Source: a virus
Lineage: Duplodnaviria > Caudoviricetes
Virus record (IMG/VR): IMGVR_UViG_3300047157_000138
Span: 1,083-65,082 of that record
DNA: 64,000 nucleotides
Reading direction: 5' to 3' (one strand)
Shown here: piece by piece, positions 5,881 to 35,226 of the stretch
Numbering within the stretch: position 1 is the first letter of the stretch
How the letters are laid out: each line of letters begins with the position of its first letter
Position numbers and translations under genes: made by a program
The notes under the pieces: model-generated
Database searches by the model: none
Told to the model about the DNA's origin: nothing
Seen by the model: the letters and a program-made list of their open reading frames with translations, nothing else

Positions 5881-7464
5881 ATGGCAGCAAACATAGAACT
5901 TAAATACTTTAATACATTCTGGTTAAAAAAAATCAAGACAATAACTGATGTTGTTCCAGGTAAAACAGGTATAACATTTCAAAGTCGATCTGGTCCTGTT
6001 TTTACGGTGTCCCCGGGCGTTACGGAAACTCAGGCTAATGTAGGGCAAGAAATAACCATGAGCTGGACTTTTTCGGGAACAGACTACACATTTTCTACTA
6101 CAATCGTTAGCCGAGGTTCTGGAACTGTTACTGCTTTTACTGTTGCTGCAGTACCCTCTACGCCAATTACAGCTGGAACTCCTATAGTTTTTGGTAAAAT
6201 AATAAATTTTGACAACATACCACAAGCTTATGCTTCTACTCCGGCTAGTGATTGGCTTATAGAAGAATCAAGAATACGAGGAGGATACAACAATACGTCG
6301 GTAGACTTTGGAGTTAAAGCTTATTTAGTAGAAGACGAACCTAAGCAATCTCATAAGTTTAGTGGCTTAATACATTCAGGTGTATTTAACTCTAGAACTG
6401 GTTTTAACGCAACTAATCAGTTTAGTGTAGGTGAAGATATAACAAGGACTATAGATCCAGCTAATGGTTCTATACAGCGTTTATATGCAGAAGATACTAA
6501 CCTTATTATATTCCAAGAAAATAAAGTAAGTAAGTCTTTAATAGATAAAGACGCTATATATTCAGCGGAAGGGAATGCCAGCATTACGAGCCGTAATTTA
6601 GTTATAGGCCAGAATGTAGCTTATGCAGGAGAATACGGAATTAGTAAAGATCCTGAATCTTTTGCTGTTAATGGTTACAGAAAATATTTTACGGATAAAG
6701 ATCAAAACGTAGTATGTAGACTATCAATGGATGGCATTACCGTAATATCAAACTACGGTATGACGGATTTCTTTAGAGATAAATTGTCTAAAGCAACATC
6801 TGGCAAAATTATAGGAGGATGGGATGCTCATAATAAACAATATGTTTTATGTATGTCGGGACCAAACTTAGATGAAAGCTCAGAACCTATTCAATCTTTT
6901 GTAACGTTATCTTTCGACGATAAAGTAAAAGGTTGGACTAGTCTTTTTGATTACAATCCTAATCAAATAATAAGTTTAAATAACGATTATTTTACAACTA
7001 ATTCAGGTAAGCTATACCAACATTATACGTTAGCGCCTAACGCATCGGACAGAGCAGTATTTTACGGAACTAGATATAACTCCAATGTAACTTTTATATT
7101 CAACGGAGCACCTTCTACGGTTAAAAACTTTCAAACTATAAACTACGAAGGCGATAGCGGGTGGAGAATGAATAGCTTTACGACTAATACGGATACAGCT
7201 TTACCAATAACTGAATCAGTTTTTGCAACTACACTGGAACAAATGCAAAATGCATTGCTAATAAATAGGTTCAAAGTAAAAGAAGACAAGTACTATGCTG
7301 ATCTAGTTAACAGTACTCCGTCTCAAAGCGGGGAAGTTGTTTGGGGCGCTTCATCTTCCGGCTTAAAGGGATTCTTTGGTGAAGTAAAAATGGAAATAAA
7401 TAATGCAGGAGCAGGTAAAAAAGAATTATTTGCAGTAAGCACAGGGTTTGTGCAATCATCTTAA
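5881..7464 (+). CDS. Tail structural protein (muzzle / stabilisation-protein C-terminal-like)
   Basis: 527 aa; motifs LIIFQENKV, YAGEYGISKDPESFA, KYFTD, TLSFDDKVKGWTSLFDY, KNFQTINYEG. Confidence 0.6.
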   Translation: MAANIELKYFNTFWLKKIKTITDVVPGKTGITFQSRSGPVFTVSPGVTETQANVGQEITMSWTFSGTDYTFSTTIVSRGSGTVTAFTVAAVPSTPITAGTPIVFGKIINFDNIPQAYASTPASDWLIEESRIRGGYNNTSVDFGVKAYLVEDEPKQSHKFSGLIHSGVFNSRTGFNATNQFSVGEDITRTIDPANGSIQRLYAEDTNLIIFQENKVSKSLIDKDAIYSAEGNASITSRNLVIGQNVAYAGEYGISKDPESFAVNGYRKYFTDKDQNVVCRLSMDGITVISNYGMTDFFRDKLSKATSGKIIGGWDAHNKQYVLCMSGPNLDESSEPIQSFVTLSFDDKVKGWTSLFDYNPNQIISLNNDYFTTNSGKLYQHYTLAPNASDRAVFYGTRYNSNVTFIFNGAPSTVKNFQTINYEGDSGWRMNSFTTNTDTALPITESVFATTLEQMQNALLINRFKVKEDKYYADLVNSTPSQSGEVVWGASSSGLKGFFGEVKMEINNAGAGKKELFAVSTGFVQSS

Positions 7465-10200: not shown

Positions 10201-13200
10201 ATGTATAAATACCGAATAGGCAAAAAAGAAGTTGTATTTAATTCCCCAGAAGAAAGAGAAAAAGGATTAGCAGAAGCTGAGGCAGCAGGGTTAACCATAG
10301 AGCTTATATACGATCACAGTGAAGAAACTGGTGATGGTTCTTTTAATATAAAAGATGATTGGGAAACTGATGATTTTACAACCGGTAAAGATTTAGATAA
10401 GGTTTTTCAAACAGATGCTGCAGAGGGTGCGGATGTGGTGTCAGAAACTACAGCACAAGATACGGAATTATCCTTGGAGGATGGTTCTTCGGTATCAATA
10501 GAGCCTCTTGAAGGTGATGATTTAGCAGTTATAGAGGGATCAGACCCTATTACTGAAACTATAAAGTTTGCTAGTCTTCCTGAAGAGGTTAAAAAAGAAA
10601 CAAGATTCCAAGCGGGGATAGCTAACACCATTGCAAAAACTTTCGTGGAAAGAGATGTTTTTCAATTAGAAGATAAATTACCTGGTCAAAATGTAAGCGA
10701 GATGGATAAAGAGGGTAAGCTAACTATGCTAACTTCCGAAGCTATCAACAATTATTTTGCAAGTCAGCCAGGCGAAACTTTATTAGACAACGAACAAATA
10801 GATGCAATAGCTTTTAATATTGTAAACGATTTAAAGCAAGCTGAAATAGCCGAAATAAATAATAAAAGCAGTATAGCTGCTAAAAGACTAAAAGATCCAG
10901 ACGCTTTTGTAGCTACTTCTATTAATAATAGCTTTGATAAAATGACTAAGCCTCAGCAAGAGCTTATAGTTGCTAGACAAAATCTTGCAAATGCTAATAA
11001 AATATTTGAAGGCGAAGATTATAAACAAAGAATGGCTAATGCTCAAAATATAATAGATCTTGAGGAAAAAGTAAGTGTTGCTAGAGACAATTATAAAAAG
11101 GGAGCCACCGGTCTTTCGGATATTAACACTGGAAAACAATTAACGCGGCCAGAGCTTATTCAATATGAGTTAGAGGGCAAAGAAACAGCAGATTATTCTG
11201 ATGAAATAAAAGATTTAATAAAATCTTTACCTACTACTAGCGAAAAGCTAAAATCTTCATGGATAGGAAATACTATTGAAATTCAAGAACTTAATGAAGA
11301 ACTACAAAATAAAGTAACATTAGTTTCAAAGCCCGGCAGAGGCGATGGTATACAGCGAGAGTATACTTTTGAACAACTAATGAAGCTCAGAAACGCAGGT
11401 ACAGACTTAGAAATATTCGATGTAGCCGTAGGAGAAGATGAGCAGTTAGCTCAAAGCATTAGCAACGATATGTTTGACAATTACAATAATCGTCGTAGAG
11501 CTCTTAATATAAAACAACAAGCTTTAGACGAACTGTATTTGTACGACATTGACCCTGGATCTGTTGAAAAAAAAGGTACTGGTTTACTTTCACAGTTTGA
11601 AAAAACAGCTTTAAAAGCTACCTTTGGAGATGTTATTGAAGATATTTACCCTCAAACGCAGAGGGATTTATTAGATGTTACAGAAAATGTATTTTCGGAT
11701 TTAGGCATAGAGACAACTGAAGCTCAAAAAAAGAATTTTGAAAGAACTTTTGGAATGCAAGTTGCAGAAGGGGTTGGTTATTTTGTACCTGAATTGGCTA
11801 AGTTTGCTGTAGCTAACGCAATAACCGGAGGTGTTTTAGGAACTGCTAAAACAATGGTACAAACTGCTAATGGTTGGAAAGCTATTACTTGGGCTAATAG
11901 AATAAATCAATTAAAAAGAAGTGGAAGTACTTTAAATAAAGCAAAAGGCTTAGTGTTCGATGCTATCGTTGAAGAGATTAAATTTAAAGGAGTAACCGGT
12001 GGTGAATCTGCCACTGGAGCTGGGGCTGGTTTTGCATTAGGCGGAGCCGGGTTTAGAGCGTTGCCTTTTAAATTAAGCCCTAAAGTATTAAGCTATAGAA
12101 ACCAAGCTGTAATAAACCCTATATTTAATAAAGTTGTAGGCGGCGGAATTGGTGGTGCTACATCTTCAGAGGTTGCTTTAGTTGTTGAGGATATGTACAA
12201 AGCAGCTACTACCGATAAAGATTTACTTAACCTACTTAAGAAAAGTTTTGTAGAAGATGCTGATGGCAACGATGTAGACGTTTTAGAAAGATACTTTGTT
12301 AATGCTGCTGTATTTTCTGCTATAGGGGTTACTCACATGAGACCTAAAGATATTAGAAAAATATCTACTGTTAGAAACCTTAATAATCAATATAACGGCA
12401 AACTAGACCTAGAAAACGCTATTAGAAAAAAAAATAAGGCTAAAGGCAAAATTATAGAAAAAGAAATGTCTGAGGTTGAGTATAATAATCTTATAGATAA
12501 AATTTTTCAAACGGAAAGTATTTTAGCAGTAGCTGATAAAGGTTATAATGAATTAGATTTATCTAAAATTAGAGAGCAAAGAGATGACGCTCAAAATTGG
12601 TTAAGTACAGATCCTAGCAAAAGAAGCGATGCTTTTACAGATTCCGCTCAAGCTAGAGCCGTTATAAATAAGTACGATCAGTCCATTACTAGAGTAAGAT
12701 CTGTTATCAATAAAACATTAGAAAACGTTGAAGAGTCTAATATTCTTGGTAATGATTTTAAATACAAGGTTGTAGACACCCTTCCTGAAGGAGACAAAGG
12801 ATTATTTCTTCCAAAGTCAAATGAAATTATAATAAATTTAAGCGAGTTTAAAGCGGGTGTTACTGAACATGAAATTAACCATGCTATCATTAATAAGCTC
12901 ATAACATCTAATTCTGAGTTAGCTATAGGACTAAGAAAAATAATAGAAGCCGATGTATCCGCTAAGCTAAAGGGAATAGAATTTAAGCTAGGAGAAGAAG
13001 ACTTAGAATTAAGCGAATGGATAGATAAAACTCATGCGGATAAAGACGAAAGAGGTAAAGCAGACGAGTATATATCATACCTAACTGAAATGTTTAATAA
13101 CCCCAAATACCGAGAAAAACTTATTGATACTGGTGTTATAAGCGATTTAAAAAATTCTATTAGCACTGTAATGGAAAACTTTGGAATGAAACGGGGGAGC

Positions 13201-16200
13201 GTAGCAGATCGTATAAATTTAAATGAAAATAATCTAAATAGAGCTAGCGATATTCTTGCATTTTTTGACCAACTAAGTAATGGAGGCAAAAAAGCCAGTA
13301 ACTGGAGAAGTAAATTTGATACTTACAATTTATTAGCCACTGATATTAAAAATTTAGAATTAGTAGATATTCCTACGGGTAAAAAAGTAGAGAGCATAGA
13401 AAAAGGGGTTGAAGAAGTTATGAAATCTAGTAGCATGAAAGAAGCTACCGAAGATTTTAAAAACAAAAACTTAGCTAAAATAAATGCTGAATTTGAAAAA
13501 ATGAAAGCAGAAGGCCAAGATGCTACGTCTATAGGGTTTAATATTGGACTTAAGTTTCAAGATATAGCTAATAAAACAATGGAATCTTATTTGAGGGCTA
13601 AAGATCTTAATATTAATGCTGATACCAAATATGATATTGTTGCGGATTTAATGTATGAAGCAATACCAAAAGCTGTTAATGCTTATGTAGAAGGGCAAAG
13701 ATTTATAGACTACGTTAAAGAAAACAATCTTTCTAAAGAAGAAGCAGCTGTTGAATTTAAAAATAGAAACCTTCGAGAAACTTCCGGAACTGAAAGATTT
13801 GAGCGTCTATATGGAATGGCTAAAGGTGAAGTTAAGCAAGCAACTATTACTTCATACCTTTTAGGAAATTTAACTAATCAATTAATAGGTGTTTTTAAAA
13901 TGCCTAAATACGAAGGTATATTTAAAAATGTTTCTTTTGATGCTCAGAAAGTTGATAAACTACAAGCTGAAGGTGAGCTGGATATTCCGGTGTCAGAGCA
14001 AGGGTTTGTAGACACATCTTCCCCTGTTAAAAATGTGCAAAGAACTAGGAAATCTGCTGAAAGCATGCTTGGCTTATCTGAAAAAACTATAAACACCGTA
14101 AATAAAGTAGTTGAAAACATAACTAAAAAGCCAATTACGGACATTGACGCTAAAAGCAAAGGAGATATTGACATGGGTCCTGGCGGTAAAGTTAATATAG
14201 TTATGCTAGATAATAATAGAGCTCGTGTAACATATCCAGATGGCAAGAAAGAAATAATGCTGGGTGCTCGTTCTCCATTAAATATTATTAAAAAAATAAT
14301 AAAAAAGTTTAGATCTGAAGCTTTCCAAAAGCTTCGGGCACCGAAAGCAACAGAAGCAGAAAAAATTAAAGCTCAAGAAGAGTTTAATGTGTATAGCAAG
14401 CTTACCGATTCGCCTCCTAAGTTTGTTAAAGAAAAGATATTAAAAACAGAATTAGGCTTAGCTGTTGAAAAAGGAATATATGAAGAAATATCTAAAGACG
14501 CGGGGGAGTTAGGCACTACAGAATATCAAGGTTTTATTGATAGATCATTTCCATTATTTAAAACTTATTTAAGTCAAAGAGCTATTAATAAAAGATTTCC
14601 AGATTTTAAAGAACCTTTGTTAGGGCCTGATGGAAAACAAGTAAGAGCTAAAACAGCAGCTGGAGCTCCATTGTTTCTTAAGAAAAATATAAAACTAGCG
14701 GAATGGAGAAAATATTTCACAGGTAAAGATAGTCCGGATTTACAGCTTAGAAGAACATCGTTACTAGAAGCGCTTTCTAGAGAGTTAGGTTTTGATAGGG
14801 TTATGGAAATAACTATAGATGAAGGACTTAGAAAACAATTAGAAAATGATCAAATAGCAGTTAATAACGAATTAGATAATTCTTACGTAGCTTTATTCCA
14901 AAAAGCAGTTGACAGAGGTGAAGCAAATGGAGGTGCTATGGCTTCTAAAGCTCTTATAGAAAGCTCTAAAGGGTCTGGTAAAGACTTAAAGGAACTTAAA
15001 AAACAATGGTTAACCATATTCGTTCCTGGAGAAATAGTTGACAAAGAAAAGTTGAAAAAAGAAAGACCCAACGACTATGAGCTTTTAGCAGATATAATTT
15101 CCAGAGTTAATGGGTTTGGTCTAGTTGAAATTCAAAAAGAGGGAGCGAAGTTAAGGGATCAAGGTGTAGGAGATTCAATAAATATTGAAGGAATTGAAAC
15201 AAATCCCAATAAAACAATGTCCACCCGAACTAAAAGCGAAAGAGAATCCTTAGGTGAATCTATGGTTATGTTTGATAAATTAGCATCTTCATTTGTTACT
15301 GAAGCATCTACTAGTCAAACCAGCGAGGTAAAAAGATTGTTATCTAATATGTTTGGATTTACCAGTCGTATAAGTCCGGAAGGCGAACCTGTTAATGCTA
15401 ATGAGTACGAAAGTATAATAAAAAACAATAAAGGTATAGCTGAAACAATGGAAGCCAGTCCGCAACTAAAAGAAGCTTGGACTAAGGCAGAGATATTATT
15501 AAAAGAAACTTCTTTATTAGGAGAGAACGCCAAAGGAAAAAAAGATATAAATGAAGATTTTTTAACAACTACTTTTAACAGAAATATTGATGCATTTATA
15601 AACAAATTTAACGAAATACAAGCATTACCTAAATTAAAAGGAGAGGGAGAAGTTCAAGCTATAAACAGAAGAATTAAACTTTTAGATAAATATGCTAAAA
15701 CCCCTGAAGGAAAAGTTGCGATTAAAGATATACAATTTAAAGATGCTTTATTAGAGGCTTCATTGTTAACCTTTGGAGAAATGTTTAATTTTGGTAGCAA
15801 GTCACAAAAAGCTAAAGTTGCCGATTTACTTGCTTCTACTCTGTTAAACAACGATGGCGTAGGCTTTAGAGCATTTTCGTCACAAAAATACTTTGCTTTT
15901 ACAGCCGAAGCTTCTTTAAAAAGAGCTAAAAACGAACATTTAGATCCTAAGCAAAAGTTTGGTGTTAGGGTTATGGACGCTTTTATAAAAGGTGATTTGT
16001 CAAATCCTGAAGCTGTTAAAGCATTAACCTCTGGATATAACAGTTTATACGGATCTGAAAGATATCAAAAAATAGCAGACAGTCGAATTGGAGCTGTAAG
16101 ATCTTTACCTAGCTATAAAAAAATGATAGCAGCTACGGCTAAGCCTACTAAAAAAGATGCTAGAAGGGTAAAGAAAATGATAGATGGAAAACTAACATCT

Positions 16201-18996
16201 AAGGACCTAGATGCACTATCTAGAATATATGATATAACTACAGGAAAAAGTGCGTTAGAAGAGCTTATGTCAGACACAGCGGCTAATTTAAACGCTTCAA
16301 TCATAAAGGCTGAGTCTAGTGCTTTCAAAACCAATGCAAAACTTTTTAAATCCGGTAAAATGGAGGAGTCTAATAACCTTTCTACCAAACAACAACTGGA
16401 TCAATTAGAAAGTAAAATAGATAGAAAAAGACTTCAGATAACTGATGAAAAAACAGGTGAAGTAAGATTTGAAGGAGACAAAGAATATAAAACTAGAATG
16501 GAAGAACTGGAAGCTACTTCTCCTGAATTATTCTTACCTAAGGAGCTTGCCGGAATGATAGAAAGGAAAGGCGGCGTGAAGGCAGATGAAGAAATATCGG
16601 ATTCTAAAGCTTTTATGGAAGGTAAGAAAAGACGAGATGATTTATTTTTACCATCTAATTCTGAAGATCTTCAAGGTTTACTATATAAAGTTTATGGTAA
16701 AGGCAAGCAAGGAGAAGAGGATATGGCTTTTATGAAAGAACATATACTTAGACCATTGACTAGAGCTGAGAACGATTTAAGTGTTTATAGAATGAATCTA
16801 GTAGTAGACTATAAAACACTTGAAGCTAAAATGAAGGAGCTTGGAAATAATAAAGCTGAAAGAGAGGCGGTTAAAAGAGTAGAAAAACTTGGGTATAACA
16901 TTGACCAAGCAGTAAGAGTTTATATATGGAATAGGTTGAACGAAAAAATTCCTGGTATTTCAGAGGTTGAGGTTGCACAATTAGCAGGGGCAGTTCATAA
17001 CTCAGAAAGACTTCAGGCTTATGCTAAAGGTATAATGAACATAACAAAAACATCTGATAAATATCCTAAACCTACAGCGAACTGGTTTAGAAGTAATGTT
17101 CAGTATGATTTATTTACTTATGCTACCGATGGTGTACGTGCCGATTTCTTAGCTCCTTGGCAAGCTAATGTGGATGCCATGTTTGACAAACAAAACCTGA
17201 ATAAGTTAGAGGCTAGGTTTGGAGGCAAGTATGTGTATAATCTTAAACAGATGCTTAAAAGAATTGAGCGTGGTAAATCAAGGCCCGAAAGTACTAATGA
17301 ATCTTTTAACAAAGCTTTAAACTATGTTAACGGATCTGTAGCTACTATTATGTTTTTAAACATGCGATCCGCAGCTTTACAAACTATATCTGCGGCTAAC
17401 TATGTCAACTGGACAGATAACAATCCTGTTGCTATAGGTAAAGTCATCGCGGAAAACCCTGCTGAATTTATAAGAGTTGCTAAAAAAATATGGAGCTCCG
17501 ATGCACTTAAAGATAGAAGATCCGGACTTAGAATAAATGTAGAAGAAGCTGAAATGGCTAAAGCTATAAACCAAGGGGGCAGAACAAATCTTCAGGGTTT
17601 ATGGGATACTATGGTTAAAGTAGGGTTTAAACCTACTCAAATGGCAGATAGTTTTGCTATTGTAACAGGAGGTACTCCTTTTTACATGAACAGAATGAAA
17701 ACTTATGAAAAGCAGGGGTTAAGTAAAAGTGAAGCAGAAAACAAAGCTTTTGAAGACTTTTTAGATGTCACTCAAGAAGGACAACAATCATCACAAATGG
17801 ACCGTGTTTCTAATATACAAACAGGTTTAATGGGTAGGTTAGTATTTTCATTTAACAATACACCTTTTCAAATGTCAAGAATACAAAAGAAAGCTGCTCT
17901 TGATTTAGTGAATAGAAGAGGTAGTGATCGTGCTAATGCGTCAAGACTAGCTTATTATGCTTTCATGCAAAGTACTTTGTTTTACGGATTGCAGCAAGGA
18001 TTTTATGCAACACTTATGTCTGACGACGATGACAAATTAACCGAAAAACAACAAGAAGAAAAGTATAAAGACTTTGAAAAAAGAGTGGATAAACTAGGTA
18101 AAAGTGTATTTCAAGGAATACTAACTGGCTCTGGACTACCTGGAAAAGTTGTAACAACTTTGTATAATACTGTAGACAAAGCAATCGAAGAATATGATAA
18201 AGGTTATCAGGGTAAAGACTTTTTTCCTATATTAAATCAAGCCTTGTCTATATCTCCAACTCTTGGTAGTAAAGCTAGTAGGTTAGGTAGAAACTGGGAA
18301 AGTTTAATATACACTGATTTCACTAAAAAAGGTAGAGAAATTAGAAATACTTATAGTGATTTTGATCCTAGAAATCCTAATGCTAAAGCTTACTTATCTA
18401 TGTTTGGAACTCTAACTAATATACCTTTAGATAGAATTGTTACTAAAATGGAAAATATTCAAGGAGTTCTTGATGACCAATCCTCTGGTTGGGAAAAAGT
18501 TGCAATGACACTTGGTACACCTAAATATCAATTACAAACTAAAGAACAAAACGAAGCTGATAGGCAAGCTAGAATAGATAAATTTTATAAAGAAAATACA
18601 CCAAAAGGCGATCGCGATTTTAATGCCATATCTGATTTAAATAAAAAAGAACAATTAAAGTTTATGACAGATCTTGATATAGAAAGTAATAAATATTTCA
18701 AAATTAAAAACGACGAAGAAAAAAGAATTAATTTTATAATTAGAAAAGGATTAGAAAAAGGAATAGACTTAGAAGTTGAAGCAGAAAAATATATAATAAA
18801 AAAGCCAGAAAGATCTGCTGAATATAAGGAGCTAGCTAAACTTACTAAAAAACAGCAGTTAGAATTAATGACAATTTTAGACATTGGTGATGAATATTTT
18901 AAATTAAAAGATGGAAAAGAAGAGGATCGCGTTAATTGGATCCTTAAAAAACAAAAAGAAAAATCAAACAATAATAAACAAAACTCTTTAAAATAA
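10201..18996 (+). CDS. Giant (2931 aa) putative internal virion / polyvalent protein with zincin HExxH motif and possible sigma-region-2-like segment
   Basis: Uninterrupted ORF; HEINH at 12868-12882 with downstream ADEYISYLTE; last large gene of the structural arm. Confidence 0.7.
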   Translation: MYKYRIGKKEVVFNSPEEREKGLAEAEAAGLTIELIYDHSEETGDGSFNIKDDWETDDFTTGKDLDKVFQTDAAEGADVVSETTAQDTELSLEDGSSVSIEPLEGDDLAVIEGSDPITETIKFASLPEEVKKETRFQAGIANTIAKTFVERDVFQLEDKLPGQNVSEMDKEGKLTMLTSEAINNYFASQPGETLLDNEQIDAIAFNIVNDLKQAEIAEINNKSSIAAKRLKDPDAFVATSINNSFDKMTKPQQELIVARQNLANANKIFEGEDYKQRMANAQNIIDLEEKVSVARDNYKKGATGLSDINTGKQLTRPELIQYELEGKETADYSDEIKDLIKSLPTTSEKLKSSWIGNTIEIQELNEELQNKVTLVSKPGRGDGIQREYTFEQLMKLRNAGTDLEIFDVAVGEDEQLAQSISNDMFDNYNNRRRALNIKQQALDELYLYDIDPGSVEKKGTGLLSQFEKTALKATFGDVIEDIYPQTQRDLLDVTENVFSDLGIETTEAQKKNFERTFGMQVAEGVGYFVPELAKFAVANAITGGVLGTAKTMVQTANGWKAITWANRINQLKRSGSTLNKAKGLVFDAIVEEIKFKGVTGGESATGAGAGFALGGAGFRALPFKLSPKVLSYRNQAVINPIFNKVVGGGIGGATSSEVALVVEDMYKAATTDKDLLNLLKKSFVEDADGNDVDVLERYFVNAAVFSAIGVTHMRPKDIRKISTVRNLNNQYNGKLDLENAIRKKNKAKGKIIEKEMSEVEYNNLIDKIFQTESILAVADKGYNELDLSKIREQRDDAQNWLSTDPSKRSDAFTDSAQARAVINKYDQSITRVRSVINKTLENVEESNILGNDFKYKVVDTLPEGDKGLFLPKSNEIIINLSEFKAGVTEHEINHAIINKLITSNSELAIGLRKIIEADVSAKLKGIEFKLGEEDLELSEWIDKTHADKDERGKADEYISYLTEMFNNPKYREKLIDTGVISDLKNSISTVMENFGMKRGSVADRINLNENNLNRASDILAFFDQLSNGGKKASNWRSKFDTYNLLATDIKNLELVDIPTGKKVESIEKGVEEVMKSSSMKEATEDFKNKNLAKINAEFEKMKAEGQDATSIGFNIGLKFQDIANKTMESYLRAKDLNINADTKYDIVADLMYEAIPKAVNAYVEGQRFIDYVKENNLSKEEAAVEFKNRNLRETSGTERFERLYGMAKGEVKQATITSYLLGNLTNQLIGVFKMPKYEGIFKNVSFDAQKVDKLQAEGELDIPVSEQGFVDTSSPVKNVQRTRKSAESMLGLSEKTINTVNKVVENITKKPITDIDAKSKGDIDMGPGGKVNIVMLDNNRARVTYPDGKKEIMLGARSPLNIIKKIIKKFRSEAFQKLRAPKATEAEKIKAQEEFNVYSKLTDSPPKFVKEKILKTELGLAVEKGIYEEISKDAGELGTTEYQGFIDRSFPLFKTYLSQRAINKRFPDFKEPLLGPDGKQVRAKTAAGAPLFLKKNIKLAEWRKYFTGKDSPDLQLRRTSLLEALSRELGFDRVMEITIDEGLRKQLENDQIAVNNELDNSYVALFQKAVDRGEANGGAMASKALIESSKGSGKDLKELKKQWLTIFVPGEIVDKEKLKKERPNDYELLADIISRVNGFGLVEIQKEGAKLRDQGVGDSINIEGIETNPNKTMSTRTKSERESLGESMVMFDKLASSFVTEASTSQTSEVKRLLSNMFGFTSRISPEGEPVNANEYESIIKNNKGIAETMEASPQLKEAWTKAEILLKETSLLGENAKGKKDINEDFLTTTFNRNIDAFINKFNEIQALPKLKGEGEVQAINRRIKLLDKYAKTPEGKVAIKDIQFKDALLEASLLTFGEMFNFGSKSQKAKVADLLASTLLNNDGVGFRAFSSQKYFAFTAEASLKRAKNEHLDPKQKFGVRVMDAFIKGDLSNPEAVKALTSGYNSLYGSERYQKIADSRIGAVRSLPSYKKMIAATAKPTKKDARRVKKMIDGKLTSKDLDALSRIYDITTGKSALEELMSDTAANLNASIIKAESSAFKTNAKLFKSGKMEESNNLSTKQQLDQLESKIDRKRLQITDEKTGEVRFEGDKEYKTRMEELEATSPELFLPKELAGMIERKGGVKADEEISDSKAFMEGKKRRDDLFLPSNSEDLQGLLYKVYGKGKQGEEDMAFMKEHILRPLTRAENDLSVYRMNLVVDYKTLEAKMKELGNNKAEREAVKRVEKLGYNIDQAVRVYIWNRLNEKIPGISEVEVAQLAGAVHNSERLQAYAKGIMNITKTSDKYPKPTANWFRSNVQYDLFTYATDGVRADFLAPWQANVDAMFDKQNLNKLEARFGGKYVYNLKQMLKRIERGKSRPESTNESFNKALNYVNGSVATIMFLNMRSAALQTISAANYVNWTDNNPVAIGKVIAENPAEFIRVAKKIWSSDALKDRRSGLRINVEEAEMAKAINQGGRTNLQGLWDTMVKVGFKPTQMADSFAIVTGGTPFYMNRMKTYEKQGLSKSEAENKAFEDFLDVTQEGQQSSQMDRVSNIQTGLMGRLVFSFNNTPFQMSRIQKKAALDLVNRRGSDRANASRLAYYAFMQSTLFYGLQQGFYATLMSDDDDKLTEKQQEEKYKDFEKRVDKLGKSVFQGILTGSGLPGKVVTTLYNTVDKAIEEYDKGYQGKDFFPILNQALSISPTLGSKASRLGRNWESLIYTDFTKKGREIRNTYSDFDPRNPNAKAYLSMFGTLTNIPLDRIVTKMENIQGVLDDQSSGWEKVAMTLGTPKYQLQTKEQNEADRQARIDKFYKENTPKGDRDFNAISDLNKKEQLKFMTDLDIESNKYFKIKNDEEKRINFIIRKGLEKGIDLEVEAEKYIIKKPERSAEYKELAKLTKKQQLELMTILDIGDEYFKLKDGKEEDRVNWILKKQKEKSNNNKQNSLK

Positions 18997-30973: not shown

Positions 30974-31458
30974 TTATTCGAATTGCGAAGCGCAGGTGTA
31001 TAGCACTTCTTTGTTAGTATTAGCACAGTGTGCTTTCTCATTAATATAATAGTTACGGTATGCAGCAACAGAATCGCCTTCAACTTTGTATTCATCGGGC
31101 ATACATTGTGGCATTTCAGTTAGGACCAATATTAAATATAGGACCTGGTGTTTGTGACAATACGTCGCGACATTTAGTAATAGTTAGGTGTTCTTTATTA
31201 TAACGCTTTTTATATTCTTTACCAAGAGCCATCATGTGAAAGTATAGCCAAGCGTAGTTTGATCGAGAGGTCACGTACCCATATAGCTGATGGATGGTTT
31301 TTATGTGTTAACTTATAAGGTACATCGATTTCACTGTCAAGCATTATATGTGCAGAACAGAGTAGTTGAGCGGACTCAAGGATCATTTTAACAACGTGCT
31401 TATTGTATTGTAATTGTGCAGCACGTTCAGGGTCGGAGTTTAAATAAAATATATTCAT
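30974..31458 (-). CDS. Pyrimidine-dimer DNA glycosylase-like (DenV/Pyr_excise family), frameshifted
   Basis: MNIFYL...KHVVKMILESAQLL...YKLTHKNHPSAIWVR; downstream frame gives PQCMPDEYK..DSVAAYRNYY..EK. Confidence 0.75.
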
Positions 31459-31461
31459 ACA

Positions 31462-31500
31462 GTTATTATCTTTAAGTTAGTGACGTATTTAAGTCTGCGA
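31462..31500 (-). promoter_or_regulatory. Early-class promoter motif (spacer 3 nt longer than the others)
   Basis: CGCAGACTTAAATACGTCACTAACTTAAAGATAATA. Confidence 0.55.
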
Positions 31501-32063
31501 ACTTTATTTAGTTGTTCTATAGTTATTATTCGATCTAATATTTTTTGATGTTTACCAGTAGTATCTTCATTAGTATGTTTAATTTCTTTAAGTAATGAGG
31601 TATTTTGGTTGGCCAAACATAACCCTGATTCGATCAAATGCAATTCAACGTCAGCTTACATCGTCATATAGAATGAGTCGATCATTTGCTCTACTGCTTG
31701 GTCGATTAGATCTTCATCGTCACAGTATATAGACAAACCGTTGCGTATAGCATCTTGTAGTTGTTCAATGATTCGCTATTATTTTCACTGTAGATATACT
31801 TCATTCAGCAATACATATACTGTTAGGGTTGTGTGTACATACCCATACAGAGTAGCCGTCACGTGTAGATTCTTCGTATACATATAGATCTTGTTCTATC
31901 CCAGCGGTTATCGCTACACGAGCTTCGTAGTGGTTTAATACTTTCATAGTACAAACCAGATGAATCAGCCTCAATTTGTTTTTGACTACAGCCTAATTTT
32001 CTAACTCAGCTTCAATAATTTCATTCAGTTAATAGTTTCATATTTATTATATTTAAGGGTTTA

Positions 32064-32100
32064 TTATATTATCTTTAGGTTAACGTATTTAATCTGCAAA
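32064..32100 (-). promoter_or_regulatory. Early-class promoter motif
   Basis: TTGCAGATTAAATACGTTAACCTAAAGATAATATA. Confidence 0.75.
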
Positions 32101-32328
32101 ATTATCAAGTGCATCAAGTATGTACTCGTAGATTTCTTTTTCTTTTTGTTCACCATCAAGTATTAATCGCTGTTCTTCTAGAGTAATACCACCATAGATT
32201 TTAGTTTTTAACGCTTTTTTAGCATCTTCAATAGAAAACATAAGGTTTACTAGTTTAGATTGGATCTTGTCGGTCGCCAAAGTATGGAGGGCAGGATCTT
32301 CTCTAAAGATTTCATAATCTTCATTCAT
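32089..32328 (-). CDS. Hypothetical early protein
   Basis: 79-aa ORF on the early strand. Confidence 0.6.
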   Translation of the reverse strand: MNEDYEIFREDPALHTLATDKIQSKLVNLMFSIEDAKKALKTKIYGGITLEEQRLILDGEQKEKEIYEYILDALDNFAD

Positions 32329-32346
32329 AAGTTTAGTTTAAAGTTA

Positions 32347-32415
32347 GTGGATAGTGAGGAATCGAACCTCATACTCGTCAGCAGCACACCCGGTCGGGGC
32401 ATCCATACCTATCCT
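32347..32415 (-). ncRNA. tRNA-like element (canonical T-arm, 6-bp acceptor-like stem, no normal D/anticodon arms)
   Basis: GGATAG...TGAGG-TTCGATT-CCTCA-CTATCC. Confidence 0.6.
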
Positions 32416-32790
32416 CCTCGTAGACATTTGCTAGCAGCTTAAAGAAAGCGCTCGGTTATTTATTCGCTACGATAATGTGTGGCTGGTTTCTTCTTAAGAC
32501 ATTTAATGTTCATCCCAGTGTAACACCACTTAATAACACGTAGTTATCTTTACAAGTTCTCTTTGAGTATTTTTAGTACATGTGTACTTGCATTGTTACT
32601 CATCACACTCGTAGTCCCACCGTGCATGTAATTAGTCTGCAATCCGTAATACTACGTTAATATTTTATGTACTACACAGCAATGTACATTGATCCCATTT
32701 TCGCTGAACCACAAAGGGCTGGGAACTAACTAATAAATAATAAACTATAGGGTCATTTGCGTATAGCATACGCTGCCGCCCGAGCACATT
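32416..32790 (-). ncRNA. Candidate large structured non-coding RNA
   Basis: No ORF of 60 aa or more on the sense strand; 8-bp long-range stem GUGCUCGG/CCGAGCGC enclosing at least seven local stems. Confidence 0.5.
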
Positions 32791-33028
32791 CAGTTAAAAC
32801 TCAAATATTTTATTTCTTCATATTCAATTTTATTATTAATTCGGTTAATCGCTCATGCGTCGTTTTTAAGTATTTAAGATCAAGCTCGCTTATAACATTA
32901 TCATTTAGCCAATAATATCTTTGTTATGTATTTATTAGGTGCTTAGTCGCATACATCATAGACATTAGTAATGTAGGTATTCATCGGTTTAATTTGTATC
33001 ATAGTATATATTATTTTATTGGTTACAT

Positions 33029-33065
33029 ATATATTATCTTAGGTAGTGCGTATTCAAATTGCAAC
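33029..33065 (-). promoter_or_regulatory. Early-class promoter motif
   Basis: TTGCAATTTGAATACGCACTACCTAAGATAATATA. Confidence 0.75.
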
Positions 33066-33066
33066 G

Positions 33067-33258
33067 TTATAAATCTTTCTTGCGTATCCAGGTTAAACCT
33101 TTGTAGTTGAACCACTTAGTTACGCCGTCTCTATCATTGATCTCGTCATATATATAGGCAAACTTGTTTGGTAGGTTGGATAGATCGAAACCGACGTGAA
33201 CATCACCGTTTAATTTTAACTCTTTTTTAGTTCTTGAAAATTTTATAGTATTTGTCAT
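33067..33258 (-). CDS. Hypothetical early protein
   Basis: 63-aa ORF, WFNYKGLTW. Confidence 0.65.
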   Translation of the reverse strand: MTNTIKFSRTKKELKLNGDVHVGFDLSNLPNKFAYIYDEINDRDGVTKWFNYKGLTWIRKKDL

Positions 33259-33260
33259 AA

Positions 33261-33395
33261 TTATAGATTTGTTTTTTGGTAATAGTTAATTCTTTCTTCG
33301 ACATCAGAGCGGGATATTTCACCCGCCATTTGCCGTAATACATCAGTAGTCATATCGATCTCTTTGCCGTTAGGGCATGTAGTTATAAACTTCAT
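33261..33395 (-). CDS. Hypothetical 44-aa early protein
   Basis: Manual translation MKFITTCPNGKEIDMTTDVLRQMAGEISRSDVEERINYYQKTNL; fills the gap between neighbours exactly. Confidence 0.6.
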   Translation of the reverse strand: MKFITTCPNGKEIDMTTDVLRQMAGEISRSDVEERINYYQKTNL

Positions 33396-33730
33396 TATAT
33401 TTGATCTTTAAGTACATCCGGAAATGAAGTAGCTACTCTACCTTCAACTAATTTTTCTGCTTCACGAGAAACATTGTGTATCAGGTTGTTAAGTTCTTGT
33501 GGACCATATAGTTTGGTATATAGTTCGCGGAATCCATCGGATTTAACACTTTTATTGTTTAGGAACCACGTTATTTCAGTGTCCATAGTATCAAGTTTGA
33601 ATCCGGTTTTTTGATCACCGTATACGTATGCATATACTAGTACTTCAGCACGGATCAGGGGATCGACGTGTATAGCAACGTTGGTGTTCATGTTAAAAGA
33701 AATTTGGTCATTTAAGTGTACTGCTCTCAT
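33395..33730 (-). CDS. Hypothetical early protein
   Basis: 111-aa ORF with AAACT-ATG start context. Confidence 0.65.
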   Translation of the reverse strand: MRAVHLNDQISFNMNTNVAIHVDPLIRAEVLVYAYVYGDQKTGFKLDTMDTEITWFLNNKSVKSDGFRELYTKLYGPQELNNLIHNVSREAEKLVEGRVATSFPDVLKDQI

Positions 33731-33733
33731 AGT

Positions 33734-33934
33734 TTATTTATTTAAAGTGTTAATTATATTTTTTATAGTTTTATTAGTAATATTTTCTAGGGCTTCCCAG
33801 TATTCGTCACCATCAAGGTCGATGTTTACATACTCTAGTTGATGGTTAATAGTGTCATACATTTGATCGATAGTTACTTCAGCGATCTGTGTTGCGAGGT
33901 GATCAGCGTTAGTTCCAATCACGGTATTCTTCAA
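33734..33934 (-). CDS. Hypothetical early protein (true start probably near 34025, frameshifted)
   Basis: Acidic ORF; AACT-ATG at about 34025. Confidence 0.5.
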   Translation of the reverse strand: MKNTVIGTNADHLATQIAEVTIDQMYDTINHQLEYVNIDLDGDEYWEALENITNKTIKNIINTLNK

Positions 33935-34044
33935 TTACGTTAGACATTTGTTCTCTAGTTAACGACCAATAGTCGACGCCAGGGTATAGACGGTTTGCGA
34001 TGTTAAACATTTGTGTGTTACTCATAGTTATTAGTTTTATAGGT

Positions 34045-34236
34045 TTATAGTTCTTCGGTTAAGTGGTCAAGGGCTAATTGGTAGCCATAGTTTTTTGCCA
34101 TTTGCATTAGTAAAAAGTCATTTACACCGTTATTACTTTGTGCAAACATATCTAGTACTTCTTCGGTAGGTGTGGCAACAATACCACGATCTAACATTTG
34201 TTGTTTGGTTGATATAAAGTCTTGTATAGTTTTCAT
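34045..34236 (-). CDS. Hypothetical early protein
   Basis: 63-aa ORF, AACT-ATG start. Confidence 0.65.
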   Translation of the reverse strand: MKTIQDFISTKQQMLDRGIVATPTEEVLDMFAQSNNGVNDFLLMQMAKNYGYQLALDHLTEEL

Positions 34237-34505
34237 AGTTATTTTAATTTAGAGTTAAACATTGGCATTTTAGGTCTGATTTCAGTGAGTATGGTATCAC
34301 ATGGATCAGGTAGTATTTCATAACACTGATTGAAAGAGTCATTAATGTATTTAACTTGATCATCGCTAAAAGGGGGGTTGATTTTAGTTAAATCATCTTC
34401 AGGGTGAACAAAGGGAATAGAGTTGTTGCATAGTAGTTAAAAACTGAATGGCTTGGTTTTTTGTAGTAATCATAGTTTATAGTATTTATTATTATTAATT
34501 TCAAA

Positions 34506-34540
34506 TATATTATCTTACATAGTGCGTATTATATCTGCAA
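34506..34540 (-). promoter_or_regulatory. Early-class promoter motif
   Basis: TTGCAGATATAATACGCACTATGTAAGATAATATA. Confidence 0.75.
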
Positions 34541-34840
34541 CTATTTCGCTCTAATTTGGTCGGCACTACAATATGCCCACATTACTTTATTTATAAAGGT
34601 TATACGGTCAACCGAAACTTCCTCGATCGGAAAGGTGTATAGCATGGTTTCATAGAATTCCATTAACCCTCGGTCATTCTCTGCATACTCTGCTTTGAAT
34701 ACTTCGTATTCATCACCTTGCATGAAACTCATTCCGCATAGTTTATTTAGTACATTGTACTCTAGGTACATCCACCGATCATTCTCTTCTGACCATATAT
34801 GTTTTATAGTAGTCACTCTTAATTCTTCTTTATTCTTCAT
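34541..34840 (-). CDS. Hypothetical early protein
   Basis: 99-aa ORF. Confidence 0.6.
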   Translation of the reverse strand: MKNKEELRVTTIKHIWSEENDRWMYLEYNVLNKLCGMSFMQGDEYEVFKAEYAENDRGLMEFYETMLYTFPIEEVSVDRITFINKVMWAYCSADQIRAK

Positions 34841-34980
34841 TTTGTTGGTTTATTTTAATTAATACTTCTCTTACGTCTTCTCTGTGGTCGTACTGATCTA
34901 AGTAGTCGTATAATACTTCTTTTACCACATTCCATTGCCATTTTTCTATGTTCATAGTTTATTTATTTTTAGGTTGACAG

Positions 34981-35226
34981 TTATTTAAGGTCGAAAGCGT
35001 ATAACATACGTAGTCGATCGAGTTCATTATATATTAATTCTCTAGTGTAATAGTAGTTACTACGTTTTGCGTTATAATTAGTGCGTTTAGTGTTAATTTG
35101 GTATAATCTTTTATTATTATGTTTTAGAGATACTCTAACATAACCGGATTTATAGGTGTAACCTAATCTTCCATCACTCATTTCACATTTAATTGTACCG
35201 TTTTTACTGATGTTTAATACTTGCAT
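34981..35226 (-). CDS. Hypothetical early protein
   Basis: 81-aa ORF downstream of a promoter, YKSGYVR..LYQIN. Confidence 0.65.
   Translation of the reverse strand: MQVLNISKNGTIKCEMSDGRLGYTYKSGYVRVSLKHNNKRLYQINTKRTNYNAKRSNYYYTRELIYNELDRLRMLYAFDLK

What the first reader, a model, noticed from the sequence alone, without database searches (positions are those of the whole stretch)
32347..32790. About 450-nt structured non-coding region: candidate new large phage ncRNA
Seen (minus strand, downstream of the 33029 promoter and a small ORF): no sizeable ORF. A long-range 8-bp stem GUGCUCGG(32787-80)/CCGAGCGC(32455-48) encloses stems GCGUAU/AUACGC (32759-73), UCCCA/UGGGA (32693-724), AUGUAC/GUACAU (32667-89), CGUAGU/ACUACG (32610-56), UGAGUA/UACUCA (32564-602) containing AGUAC/GUACU, AUAAC/GUUAU (32533-47) and AGUG/CACU (32517-30). 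GGCAGC (32777-72) could pair with GCUGCU (32438-33) as a pseudoknot. A tRNA-like module follows. Established: large ornate phage RNAs near tRNAs exist (GOLLD, ROOL), but I cannot match this one to them, to tmRNA or to RNase P RNA.
Basis: partly seen in the sequence, partly recalled or inferred. Interest (0 to 1): 0.78.

Follow-up and report, generated by a model that had tools for sequence, protein, structure and literature searches.

The report
Modular phage RNA with tRNA-like end
A marine phage carries a roughly 400-base non-coding stretch built from several separately conserved RNA folds and ending in a tRNA-shaped piece; it matches no catalogued RNA family and its job is still unknown.

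Summary
On the minus strand it is a chain of separable modules. (1) 32821-32753: the remnant of a conserved 21-24-aa micro-ORF. (2) 32752-32657 (B1): two hairpins joined by a loop-loop helix. (3) 32656-32539: an optional 118-nt insert. (4) 32529-32479 (B2a): a compact domain. (5) 32472-32418: an optional hairpin with two conserved loop strands. (6) 32414-32348: a tRNA-like domain (TLD) without an anticodon.

Thirty-one copies were collected from viral and metagenome contigs. Compensatory changes support B1, B2a, the hairpin and the TLD. Folding energy is no better than shuffles.

Rfam and ARAGORN find no tRNA, tmRNA, GOLLD, ROOL or RNase P RNA here. Related phages carry, at the same place, tRNA-Met genes and tag-less tmRNA-like domains that Rfam's tmRNA model hits below threshold.

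Best reading (about 0.4): a processed, modular ncRNA cassette. Host tRNA-maturing enzymes would cut at the TLD, releasing the structured RNA and the downstream mRNA. Cleavage and function are untested.

The parts
33026..33046 (-). Promoter-like site of the type that recurs before the small early genes on this strand; the likely start of the transcript that carries the element
   Evidence: The motif recurs on the minus strand: 19 matches against a mean of 7.5 in shuffles, 0 of 100 shuffles reaching 19. Coordinates. No transcript start was measured.
32810..33002 (-). Frame-shifted remnant of a 63-aa ORF that is intact in relatives (L004 3465-3656)
   Evidence: Alignment; ORF list of L004. In the window the frame breaks after 19 codons.
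32753..32821 (-). Micro-ORF remnant. Relatives encode a 21-24-aa peptide ending CARAAAYAIRK. The window copy has in-frame TAA and TGA caused by a +1 and a -1 indel relative to L185. It holds the invariant hairpin GCGUAUGCUAUACGC at 32773-32759.
   Evidence: 28 of 30 copies are intact, 1 is cut by a contig end, and the window has no start. Synonymous codon variants occur at 7 positions. Alignment.
32657..32752 (-). Module B1. Hairpin P-b pairs 32724-32720 with 32697-32693. Hairpin P-c pairs 32689-32684 with 32672-32667. A loop-loop helix pairs CAGCG (32706-32702) with UGCUG (32681-32677).
   Evidence: P-b has C-G in 6 and A-U in 15 rows. The variable pair of the loop-loop helix is A-U in 15, G-C in 4 and U-A in 1 row. 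All 6 pairs of P-c are compensated in L166. Coordinates.
32539..32656 (-). Module A, an optional 118-nt insert closed by CGUAGU/ACUACG. The inner helix pairs UACGAG (32613-32608) with CUUGUA (32556-32551). GAGUA/UACUC spans 32601-32565.
   Evidence: It is absent from 27 of 28 full copies; L178 has a different insert of about 140 nt at the same site. A homologue lies in L061 at 205-330, where the inner helix reads UCGCG/CGCGA. A related module sits inside tmRNA-like domains of L067 and L162. DNA-run contig X1 record 5 bridges both junctions. The MFE closes the module with the distal ACUACG.
32479..32529 (-). Module B2a. The closing helix pairs GUGG (32529-32526) with CCAC (32482-32479). The module also holds hairpin P-d with loop UGGGAUGA, hairpin P-e (32499-32489) and a possible 3-bp pseudoknot UGG/CCA. 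The window copy lacks 4 nt (GUGU), which form most of the 3' strand of P-d.
   Evidence: Model R2 finds 28 main and 3 second copies and 0 in 100 other loci; 98.7% of cells paired, 7 of 16 pairs changed on both sides, covariation 0.311 against 0.115 in shuffles (0 of 500). DNA contig X1 has the 4 nt ('put in behind 32509').
32418..32472 (-). Optional hairpin module. Helix H1 pairs UCGUAG (32472-32467) with CUACGA (32423-32418). It encloses the conserved strands CGAAUAAAUAAC and AAAUGU and a variable inner hairpin.
   Evidence: 23 family rows show 10 complementary versions of H1. Pairing was a search criterion, so the variety of versions is the evidence. The inner hairpin shrinks to 6 nt in L167 and L176. 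The module is absent in 8 of 28 copies. The 14-mer occurs once in the window.
32348..32414 (-). tRNA-like domain (class II). It has a 6-bp acceptor (32414-32409 with 32354-32349), the linker GUAUGGAU with no D stem, a variable arm (32400-32388), a 4-bp hairpin with a GACG loop (32383-32372), a T arm (32371-32355) and discriminator A at 32348. The trailer CUAA at 32347-32344 is not part of the domain.
   Evidence: 43 distinct domains: 6 of 15 pairs changed on both sides, and the acceptor shows 8 complementary versions. The MFE is a four-way cloverleaf, z -1.35. ARAGORN finds no gene. The best Rfam match is tRNA-Sec, 16.2 bits, E 3.7.
32089..32328 (-). Downstream 79-aa ORF; its AUG lies 19 nt after the discriminator of the tRNA-like domain
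   Evidence: The same spacing recurs: 27 of 77 T-arm elements, true tRNAs included, have an ORF start 10-29 nt downstream.

Best explanation
This is a modular, structured non-coding RNA cassette inside an early operon of an uncultured marine phage of about 65 kb.

It is probably transcribed from the promoter-like site at 33046-33026, together with two small ORFs. The transcript then carries a conserved core (B1 with a loop-loop helix, and the compact B2a domain), optional plug-in modules, and a 3' tRNA-like domain without an anticodon.

I propose that the host's tRNA-maturing enzymes treat that domain as a tRNA. RNase P would cut before G32414, and 3' trimming and CCA addition would follow A32348. 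This would release the structured upstream RNA and a small tRNA-like RNA. It would also leave the next gene's mRNA with a short A/U-rich leader of about 19 nt.

Shown: conservation, covarying helices, modularity, and position and spacing relative to genes and to true tRNA genes in relatives.

Inferred: transcription as one unit, the cuts, and any activity of the released RNAs. The partner of the core, whether protein, RNA or ligand, is unknown.
For: Conservation:
- The non-coding block is nearly invariant while the flanking protein is 62-77% identical.
- Twenty-eight full and 3 cut copies were found in viral and metagenome contigs.

Covariation:
- Core: 11 of 35 pairs changed on both sides, against 2.1 in shuffles (0 of 500). 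Slid controls reach at most 4.
- B2a.
- tRNA-like domain.
- H1: 10 complementary versions.

Coding is unlikely. The 40-aa frame in B1 shows 1 synonymous and 5 non-synonymous differences, a frameshift in L005 and no start in L003 (read by eye).

tRNA context:
- At the same position upstream of the endonuclease V-like gene, relatives carry tRNA-Met genes and tRNA-like domains that abut them (L083 2209-2294 next to tRNA-Met 2300-2374; L056).
- True tRNAs and tRNA-like domains share the trailer A-CUAA.
- 27 of 77 are followed by an ORF start 10-29 nt later.

RNA libraries: contigs from two RNA libraries of different studies span the element in its insert-less form (X16, 363 nt; X17, 373 nt).

Spread: the 3' half of this domain type occurs in 56 viral stretches.
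Against: - No read-level data: contigs cannot show a transcript, its ends or a cut, and RNA libraries may contain DNA.
- Folding energy is not better than shuffles for the whole region (z +0.54) or for B1, B2a and H1 alone (z 0.10, 0.72, 0.00).
- The domain has no D stem and only a 6-bp acceptor, and neither ARAGORN nor Rfam accepts it. Recognition by RNase P is therefore assumed.
- Two copies (L166, L180) have the core but no tRNA-like domain, so the core does not depend on it.
- Much of the covariation rests on few lineages. All six compensated P-c pairs come from L166, and alignments A6 and A8 were fitted to the structure.
- The tRNA-like domains and H1 helices were collected with pairing as a criterion.
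Confidence: 0.4

Rival explanations
1. The tRNA-like domain works like a tag-less ('CDS-less') tmRNA. It would bind SmpB, and perhaps EF-Tu, and interfere with or replace host ribosome rescue, as reported for mycobacteriophage DS6A. The upstream modules would be accessory.
For: - Related phages carry, at the syntenic place, 64-188-nt domains with G3.U70 and a 3' end like the tmRNA consensus.
- Rfam tmRNA hits them below the 47-bit cut-off: L087 37.9 bits (E 1e-11), L103 33.4 bits, L110 26.2 bits, L074 19.1 bits.
- ARAGORN calls L110 a tmRNA.
- This type's 3' end occurs in 81 viral stretches.
- The DS6A precedent: PMC11915505, passages read.
- The H1 module carries a frame GCG-AAU-AAA-UAA; variants are GCG-AAU-UCC-UAA (L177, L183) and GCG-AAU-AGC-UAG (L075). 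The same paper reports 2-aa tags.
Against: - The window's own domain has A3-U70, not G3.U70.
- It gets no tmRNA hit at E up to 10.
- In the window the H1 module lies 5' of the closed domain, not inside it, a topology unknown for trans-translation.
- The H1 module is missing in 8 of 28 copies.
- No SmpB gene was found among 62 ORFs.
- L186 shifts the 3-codon frame.
Confidence: 0.12
2. The cassette is a set of interchangeable RNA modules, such as aptamers, decoys or sponges, displayed on or beside tRNA-like scaffolds that stabilise them. The modules would bind host or phage factors, for example defence proteins or RNases.
For: The same modules appear in different settings.
- Module A lies between B1 and B2a in the window. 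It stands before three tRNA-like domains in L061. An A-like module sits inside tmRNA-like domains of L067 and L162.
- The CCGCGGCG-GNRA-type hairpin serves as the inner hairpin of H1 (L141, L147, L154), as the arm of class II domains (L210, L218, L235) and as the body of a class I domain (L099).
- The variable arm of the domains ranges from 15 to about 80 nt.
- B2a has a second copy after another operon in relatives.
Against: - No binding partner or target is known.
- No defence or anti-defence gene was identified nearby.
- Module shuffling could equally reflect recombination between repeats without selection for display.
Confidence: 0.15
3. B1 and B2a form a cis-acting leader, a riboswitch or attenuator, that controls the gene downstream or responds to translation of the micro-ORF upstream.
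For: - A compact pseudoknot-like domain with invariant loop nucleotides resembles an aptamer.
- The element always follows the micro-ORF.
- In L166 and L180 the core leads straight into a 5' leader and an ORF.
Against: - The downstream gene differs among copies: the 79-aa ORF in the window and L004, other ORFs in L003, L166/L187 and L180.
- No terminator or start-codon-sequestering alternative was found on the minus strand.
- In most copies modules and a tRNA-like domain lie between the core and the gene.
- The second B2a copy lies after a stop codon, at the end of an operon.
Confidence: 0.08
4. The conservation acts on DNA, not RNA: a replication origin, packaging or recombination site, or a recently spread mobile segment.
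For: - Near identity amid diverged flanks could reflect recent transfer.
- Insertions and deletions occur at fixed junctions.
Against: - The changes are compensatory in a strand-specific way, with G.U pairs on the minus-strand reading.
- T-loop and acceptor features are those of an RNA.
- No integrase or transposase was found among 62 ORFs.
- The domain's 3' 20-mer is not a host tRNA end in 185,579 species genomes; the single hit is not a tRNA.
Confidence: 0.05

Closest known systems
Tag-less (CDS-less) tmRNA, as in mycobacteriophage DS6A, jakobid mitochondria and two plastids (PMC11915505, passages read; Mao et al. 2009, cited there, not read)
   Same: It is a phage-borne acceptor/T-arm domain with a D loop but no D stem, no anticodon and no long tag frame. 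Sister domains in related phages are hit by the Rfam tmRNA model and have G3.U70.
   Different: The window's domain has A3-U70 and gets no tmRNA hit at E up to 10. It carries an extra conserved GACG hairpin and follows about 340 nt of other structured modules.
tRNA-like processing signals: the mitochondrial tRNA punctuation model, MALAT1/mascRNA, and bacterial tRNA-mRNA co-transcripts (all recalled, no paper read here)
   Same: A tRNA-shaped element sits between a long structured RNA and the next coding region. True tRNAs occupy the same slot in relatives, with the same trailer and the same spacing to the next AUG.
   Different: No cleavage has been shown here. The element is phage-encoded and lies in a family with many scaffold and cargo combinations.
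GOLLD and ROOL, large ornate RNAs often found in phages near tRNA genes (Rfam families; their properties are recalled)
   Same: It is a long, multi-domain phage RNA of unknown function in a tRNA neighbourhood, with variable regions.
   Different: There is no sequence or structure match in Rfam 15 at gathering score in 64 kb, nor at E up to 10 in 901 nt. It is smaller, with a core of about 165 nt, and is made of modules that occur separately.
Candidate structured RNAs predicted in IMG/VR (PMC10690425, passages read; supplements closed)
   Same: That survey reports tRNA-like candidates and motifs upstream of genes in uncultivated viral genomes.
   Different: I could not check whether this element is among its 8,495 IMG/VR candidates, because the lists are in supplements I could not open.

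Membership tests
tmRNA (Rfam RF00023 and relatives) | Covariance-model score at or above the gathering cut-off of 47 bits | tested here: not met
   No tmRNA match at E up to 10 in 32200-33100 or in the whole 65-kb record. ARAGORN finds no tmRNA. Sister domains in other phages reach 19-38 bits.
tmRNA (Rfam RF00023 and relatives) | Alanine identity pair G3.U70 in the acceptor stem | tested here: not met
   The window has G1-C, G2-C, A3-U. None of the 8 acceptor versions of this class has G3.U70. Class I domains in relatives do have it.
tmRNA (Rfam RF00023 and relatives) | T arm with a T loop, and a D loop without a D stem | tested here: met
   The T arm is UGAGG-UUCGAUU-CCUCA, and the linker GUAUGGAU has GG and no stem.
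tmRNA (Rfam RF00023 and relatives) | Tag reading frame placed between the two halves of the tRNA-like domain | tested here: not met
   The only candidate frame (GCG AAU AAA UAA, 32467-32456) lies 5' of the closed domain. Only L074 has it inside.
tRNA | Cloverleaf with a D arm and an anticodon arm with a 7-nt loop (U33, purine 37) | tested here: not met
   ARAGORN finds 0 genes in the window and in L002-L005. The Rfam tRNA clan reaches at best 16.2 bits against a 47-bit cut-off. The arm at the anticodon position varies from 0 to about 80 nt.
GOLLD / ROOL / HEARO / OLE / RNase P RNA / group I intron | Match to the family covariance model | tested here: not met
   0 matches at gathering score in 64 kb. 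At E up to 10 in 901 nt there were only two weak matches, tRNA-Sec and a snoRNA. There were 0 matches in L061 150-620.
Riboswitch or cis-regulatory leader | Constant association with one downstream gene family and an expression platform | tested here: not met
   Downstream ORFs differ among copies. No minus-strand terminator-like site was found.
Protein-coding gene (for 32752-32348) | An open frame kept in relatives, with mostly synonymous change | tested here: not met
   The longest frame is 40 aa. It loses its start in L003 and is frame-shifted in L005, with 1 synonymous and 5 non-synonymous differences (by eye). By contrast the micro-ORF at 32821-32753 passes this test in relatives.

The most novel reading that the evidence does not exclude
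A group of uncultured marine phages with genomes of about 60-70 kb uses tRNA- and tmRNA-like domains as natural scaffolds or processing handles for a library of interchangeable structured RNA modules. The window's 400-nt cassette would be one assembly from that library. Its B1/B2a core would be a new pseudoknotted RNA class that binds a host or phage factor, for example as an RNA decoy against a host defence or against RNA-decay machinery.
Probability: 0.15. Interest if true: 0.85.

Novelty: new variant of a known kind. Interest (0 to 1): 0.66.

Why it matters
If it is transcribed and processed as proposed, this would be a natural counterpart of the engineered 'tRNA scaffold' for RNA expression. 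It would also be a phage use of tRNA punctuation to cut operon transcripts.

The B1/B2a core is a covariation-supported fold with no catalogued family. The shared modules across dozens of viral contigs give a ready data set for defining several new RNA motifs.

The sister domains extend the little-known tag-less tmRNA forms from one mycobacteriophage to a widespread marine phage group. This makes the question of what such RNAs do during infection testable.

Tried and rejected
- **Known families.** Rfam at gathering score, at E up to 10, and on relatives, together with ARAGORN, gave nothing for the window.
- **GenBank phages.** blastn 'distant' with the window's 601 nt and with the 521-nt region of L056 found no match. 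tblastn with the neighbouring endonuclease V-like protein found only relatives below 60% identity, so no cultured relative or host could be named.
- **Thermodynamic excess.** None was found.
- **Coding reading of B1.** Rejected; see the membership test.
- **The 14-mer AGCGAATAAATAAC as a recurrent promoter.** It occurs once in the window, and matches with 3 mismatches are at chance level: 23 against 15, with 4 of 100 shuffles reaching 23. Six viral loci have it directly before the ATG of one protein family. I treat these as chance or as a separate use, and I dropped them from the H1 count together with L120, L048 and L051.
- **A host tRNA as the source of the domain's 3' end.** There was one hit in 185,579 species genomes, in a Pirellulaceae MAG, and it is not a tRNA.
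- **Model R1 on 100 other loci.** Only chance-level hits, E 0.6-0.9.
- **First MAFFT and R1 alignments.** They mis-register the L004-type B2a by one base, so helices 6-8 under-count pairing. R2 and alignment A8 corrected this.
- **RNA-run contigs.** They leave parts of 31000-35000 uncovered. I draw nothing from the gaps or the depths.
- **tmRNA tag resemblance.** A likeness of the H1 region to a tmRNA tag start and end is only recalled. I could fetch no Bacteroidota tmRNA to test it.
- **Earlier notes of this scan.** Nothing was on record for this genome or for this sequence.

Full report
**What is in the window**

On the minus strand, 33066 to 32329 holds no ORF longer than 40 aa. ARAGORN finds no tRNA or tmRNA in the 64 kb. 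Rfam finds nothing at gathering score. At E up to 10 in 32200-33100 there are only two weak matches:
- tRNA-Sec, 16.2 bits, E 3.7, on 32347-32416.
- A nematode snoRNA, 15.6 bits.

The 461-nt stretch folds no better than dinucleotide shuffles (-110.1 against a mean of -112.6 kcal/mol, z +0.54). Sixty-nine of 100 shuffles do at least as well. The window is almost all of a 65,082-base IMG/VR virus record rated complete. Its genes include ribonucleotide reductase, primase-helicase, thymidylate synthase, ERF, GroEL/ES and a crAss-type muzzle domain. None of the 62 ORFs scanned is SmpB, an integrase or a reverse transcriptase.

**Relatives**

- The downstream 79-aa protein led to four viral contigs with 62-77% identity.
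- DNA patterns added one more viral contig.
- One metagenome scan with a B1 anchor added 25 contigs.
- In all of them the block from the end of a small ORF to the tRNA-like module is nearly invariant, while the flanks diverge.
- A covariance model of the core (R1) recovers 31 copies, 28 full-length and 3 cut by contig ends.

**The 5' end is coding**

Relatives encode a 21-24-aa peptide ending CARAAAYAIRK. It is intact in 28 of 30 copies examined. One copy is cut by a contig end, and the window's copy has no start. Synonymous codon variants occur at seven positions. A more distant phage, L036, keeps this micro-ORF but lacks the rest of the element.

Relative to L185, the window copy has a +1 and a -1 indel, which give in-frame TAA and TGA. 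The window also has a frame-shifted 63-aa ORF upstream and an endonuclease V-like gene split over three frames. The assembly therefore either has indel errors or this phage carries decayed genes. RNA-run contigs of relatives lack one base at both frameshift sites of the latter gene. The best DNA holder agrees with the window, but it may be the source sample.

**The non-coding part is a chain of modules**

*B1 (32752-32657).* It has two hairpins. A loop-loop helix joins a loop of the first to the loop of the second. Its one variable pair is A-U in 15, G-C in 4 and U-A in 1 of the distinct rows.

*B2a (32529-32479).* This is a closed domain with two inner hairpins and invariant loop letters. A model of it (R2) finds the 28 main copies and three second copies that lie just after another operon in relatives. 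It finds none in 100 other loci totalling 910,184 bases.

Pair counts:

| Region | Cells paired | Pairs changed on both sides | Shuffles | Covariation score |
|---|---|---|---|---|
| Core (B1 + B2a) | 94.4% | 11 of 35 | mean 2.1, 0 of 500 reach 11 | 0.108 against 0.042 |
| B2a alone | 98.7% | 7 of 16 | 3 of 500 reach 7 | 0.311 against 0.115 |

Caveats on these counts:
- Both alignments were fitted to the structure.
- All six compensated pairs of hairpin P-c come from one sequence (L166).
- The B1 anchor columns cannot vary by design.

*Between B1 and B2a.* The window has a 118-nt insert (module A). Of the 28 full copies, 26 have nothing there and L178 has a different insert. A DNA-run contig bridges both junctions of module A and also carries the 4 nt that the window lacks in B2a. 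Module A recurs in L061 ahead of three tandem tRNA-like domains, with a compensated inner helix. An A-like module sits inside tmRNA-like domains of L067 and L162.

*H1 hairpin (32472-32418).* This module follows B2a. Helix H1 encloses two conserved strands and a variable inner hairpin. Across 23 family rows H1 has 10 complementary versions. Pairing was a search criterion, and I dropped 4 rows as spurious. The module is absent in 8 of 28 copies.

*The tRNA-like domain (32414-32348).* It has:
- a 6-bp acceptor and a GG-containing linker without a D stem;
- an arm of variable length, and a 4-bp hairpin with a GACG loop;
- a canonical T arm and a discriminator A.

Among 43 distinct domains of this class, 6 of 15 pairs change on both sides. 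The covariation score is 0.229 against 0.120, with 0 of 500 shuffles reaching it. The acceptor shows 8 complementary versions. The domains were collected with acceptor and T-stem pairing as criteria, so only the variety of pair types counts as evidence. Two copies of the core (L166, L180) have no such domain.

**The wider family**

Using the endonuclease V-like neighbour as an anchor, 80 syntenic viral loci were fetched. Many carry tRNA-Met genes and tRNA-like domains that ARAGORN does not call, some of them directly abutting tRNA-Met.

A second class has G3.U70 and a 3' end close to the tmRNA consensus. Rfam's tmRNA model hits these below its 47-bit cut-off:

| Locus | Bits | E-value |
|---|---|---|
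| L087 | 37.9 | 1e-11 |
| L103 | 33.4 | 9e-10 |
| L110 | 26.2 | 1e-6 |
| L074 | 19.1 | 0.001 |

These values are; the alignment is. ARAGORN calls L110 a tmRNA with a doubtful tag.

Such tag-less forms are on record for mycobacteriophage DS6A, where the RNA is said to inhibit the endogenous tmRNA in E. coli (PMC11915505, passages read). The primary paper was not read.

Exact 3' halves of the window's class and of the G3.U70 class occur in 56 and 81 viral stretches respectively, mostly on contigs of 50-70 kb. True tRNAs and tRNA-like domains share the trailer A-CUAA. In 27 of 77 cases an ORF starts 10-29 nt downstream; in the window the gap is 19 nt.

**Expression**

Six RNA libraries hold small shares of the 4-kb stretch. 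Three were laid. In two of them, from different studies, contigs span the element in its insert-less form: X16, oligo-dT, 363 nt; X17, 373 nt. Contigs cannot show transcription, strand or ends.

**Reading**

The evidence establishes a conserved, structured, modular RNA-like locus of a kind not in Rfam. How it works is inferred.

- My best explanation (about 0.4) is a processed cassette. The tRNA-like domain is cut by host tRNA-maturing enzymes, releasing the structured RNA and giving the next mRNA a short leader.
- The rivals are a tag-less-tmRNA-like action on ribosome rescue (0.12), scaffold-displayed decoy or aptamer modules (0.15), a cis-regulatory leader (0.08) and a DNA-level element (0.05).
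- Earlier notes of this scan on other genomes describe tag-less mini-tmRNAs and anticodon-less mini-tRNAs in phages. I used them only as leads.

Noticed in passing
window 30977-31458 (-): The endonuclease V-like (pyrimidine dimer glycosylase) gene is split over three frames in the window but is one 160-aa ORF in relatives. RNA-run contigs of relatives lack one base at 31123 and at 31271. The window therefore has either assembly indels or decayed genes.
   Followed up: partly
L006 10143-10198; L171 4324-4379 (-); L003 1-54: A second, diverged copy of the B2a domain lies right after the stop codon of a 50-aa ORF at the end of another operon, followed by repeated GCUGUAUAGCACUGCAGA-like units. 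No such copy was found in the window.
   Followed up: partly
L061 365-568: Three tandem tRNA-like domains stand in a row. Two are near-identical 59-nt units and the third is of the window's class. A homologue of the window's 118-nt insert precedes them.
   Followed up: partly
L152 1861-1902 (-) and 2439-2478 (-); L150 399-438 (-); L143 2202-2241 (-); L102 2577-2617; L077 689-734: These are very small acceptor/T-arm 'minihelix' genes of 40-46 nt, with a GG-containing connector and the same A-CUAA trailer. Several lie 15-30 nt before an ORF start.
   Followed up: no
L119 9139-9516; L132 5804-6196: ARAGORN calls permuted (two-piece type) tmRNA genes with ordinary tags (ANDAYFGDERLAA, ANDNYAGVEEVALAA) on two other viral contigs. 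L132 also has a tRNA with a CUA anticodon.
   Followed up: no
L145, L148, L153, L155, L157, L158: The 14-mer AGCGAATAAATAAC stands directly before the ATG of one conserved protein family (M-I-E-E-N-K-D-P-K-M-T-E-N...). This may be chance, or a shared leader element.
   Followed up: no
L110 1608-1795 compared with L103 639-720 and L087 1700-1790: One module (GUGAUGCCGACUAUCGACGGAUAUAAGCGAGCGUACGG...) lies inside the tmRNA-like domain of L110. In L087 it lies between that domain and tRNA-Met. This is another case of a module changing place.
   Followed up: no
window 10201-18996 (+): A 2,931-aa ORF has no Pfam hit. Together with the crAss-type muzzle domain in 5881-7464, it hints at a crAss-like virion protein set. 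It was not scanned against PHROGs.
   Followed up: no
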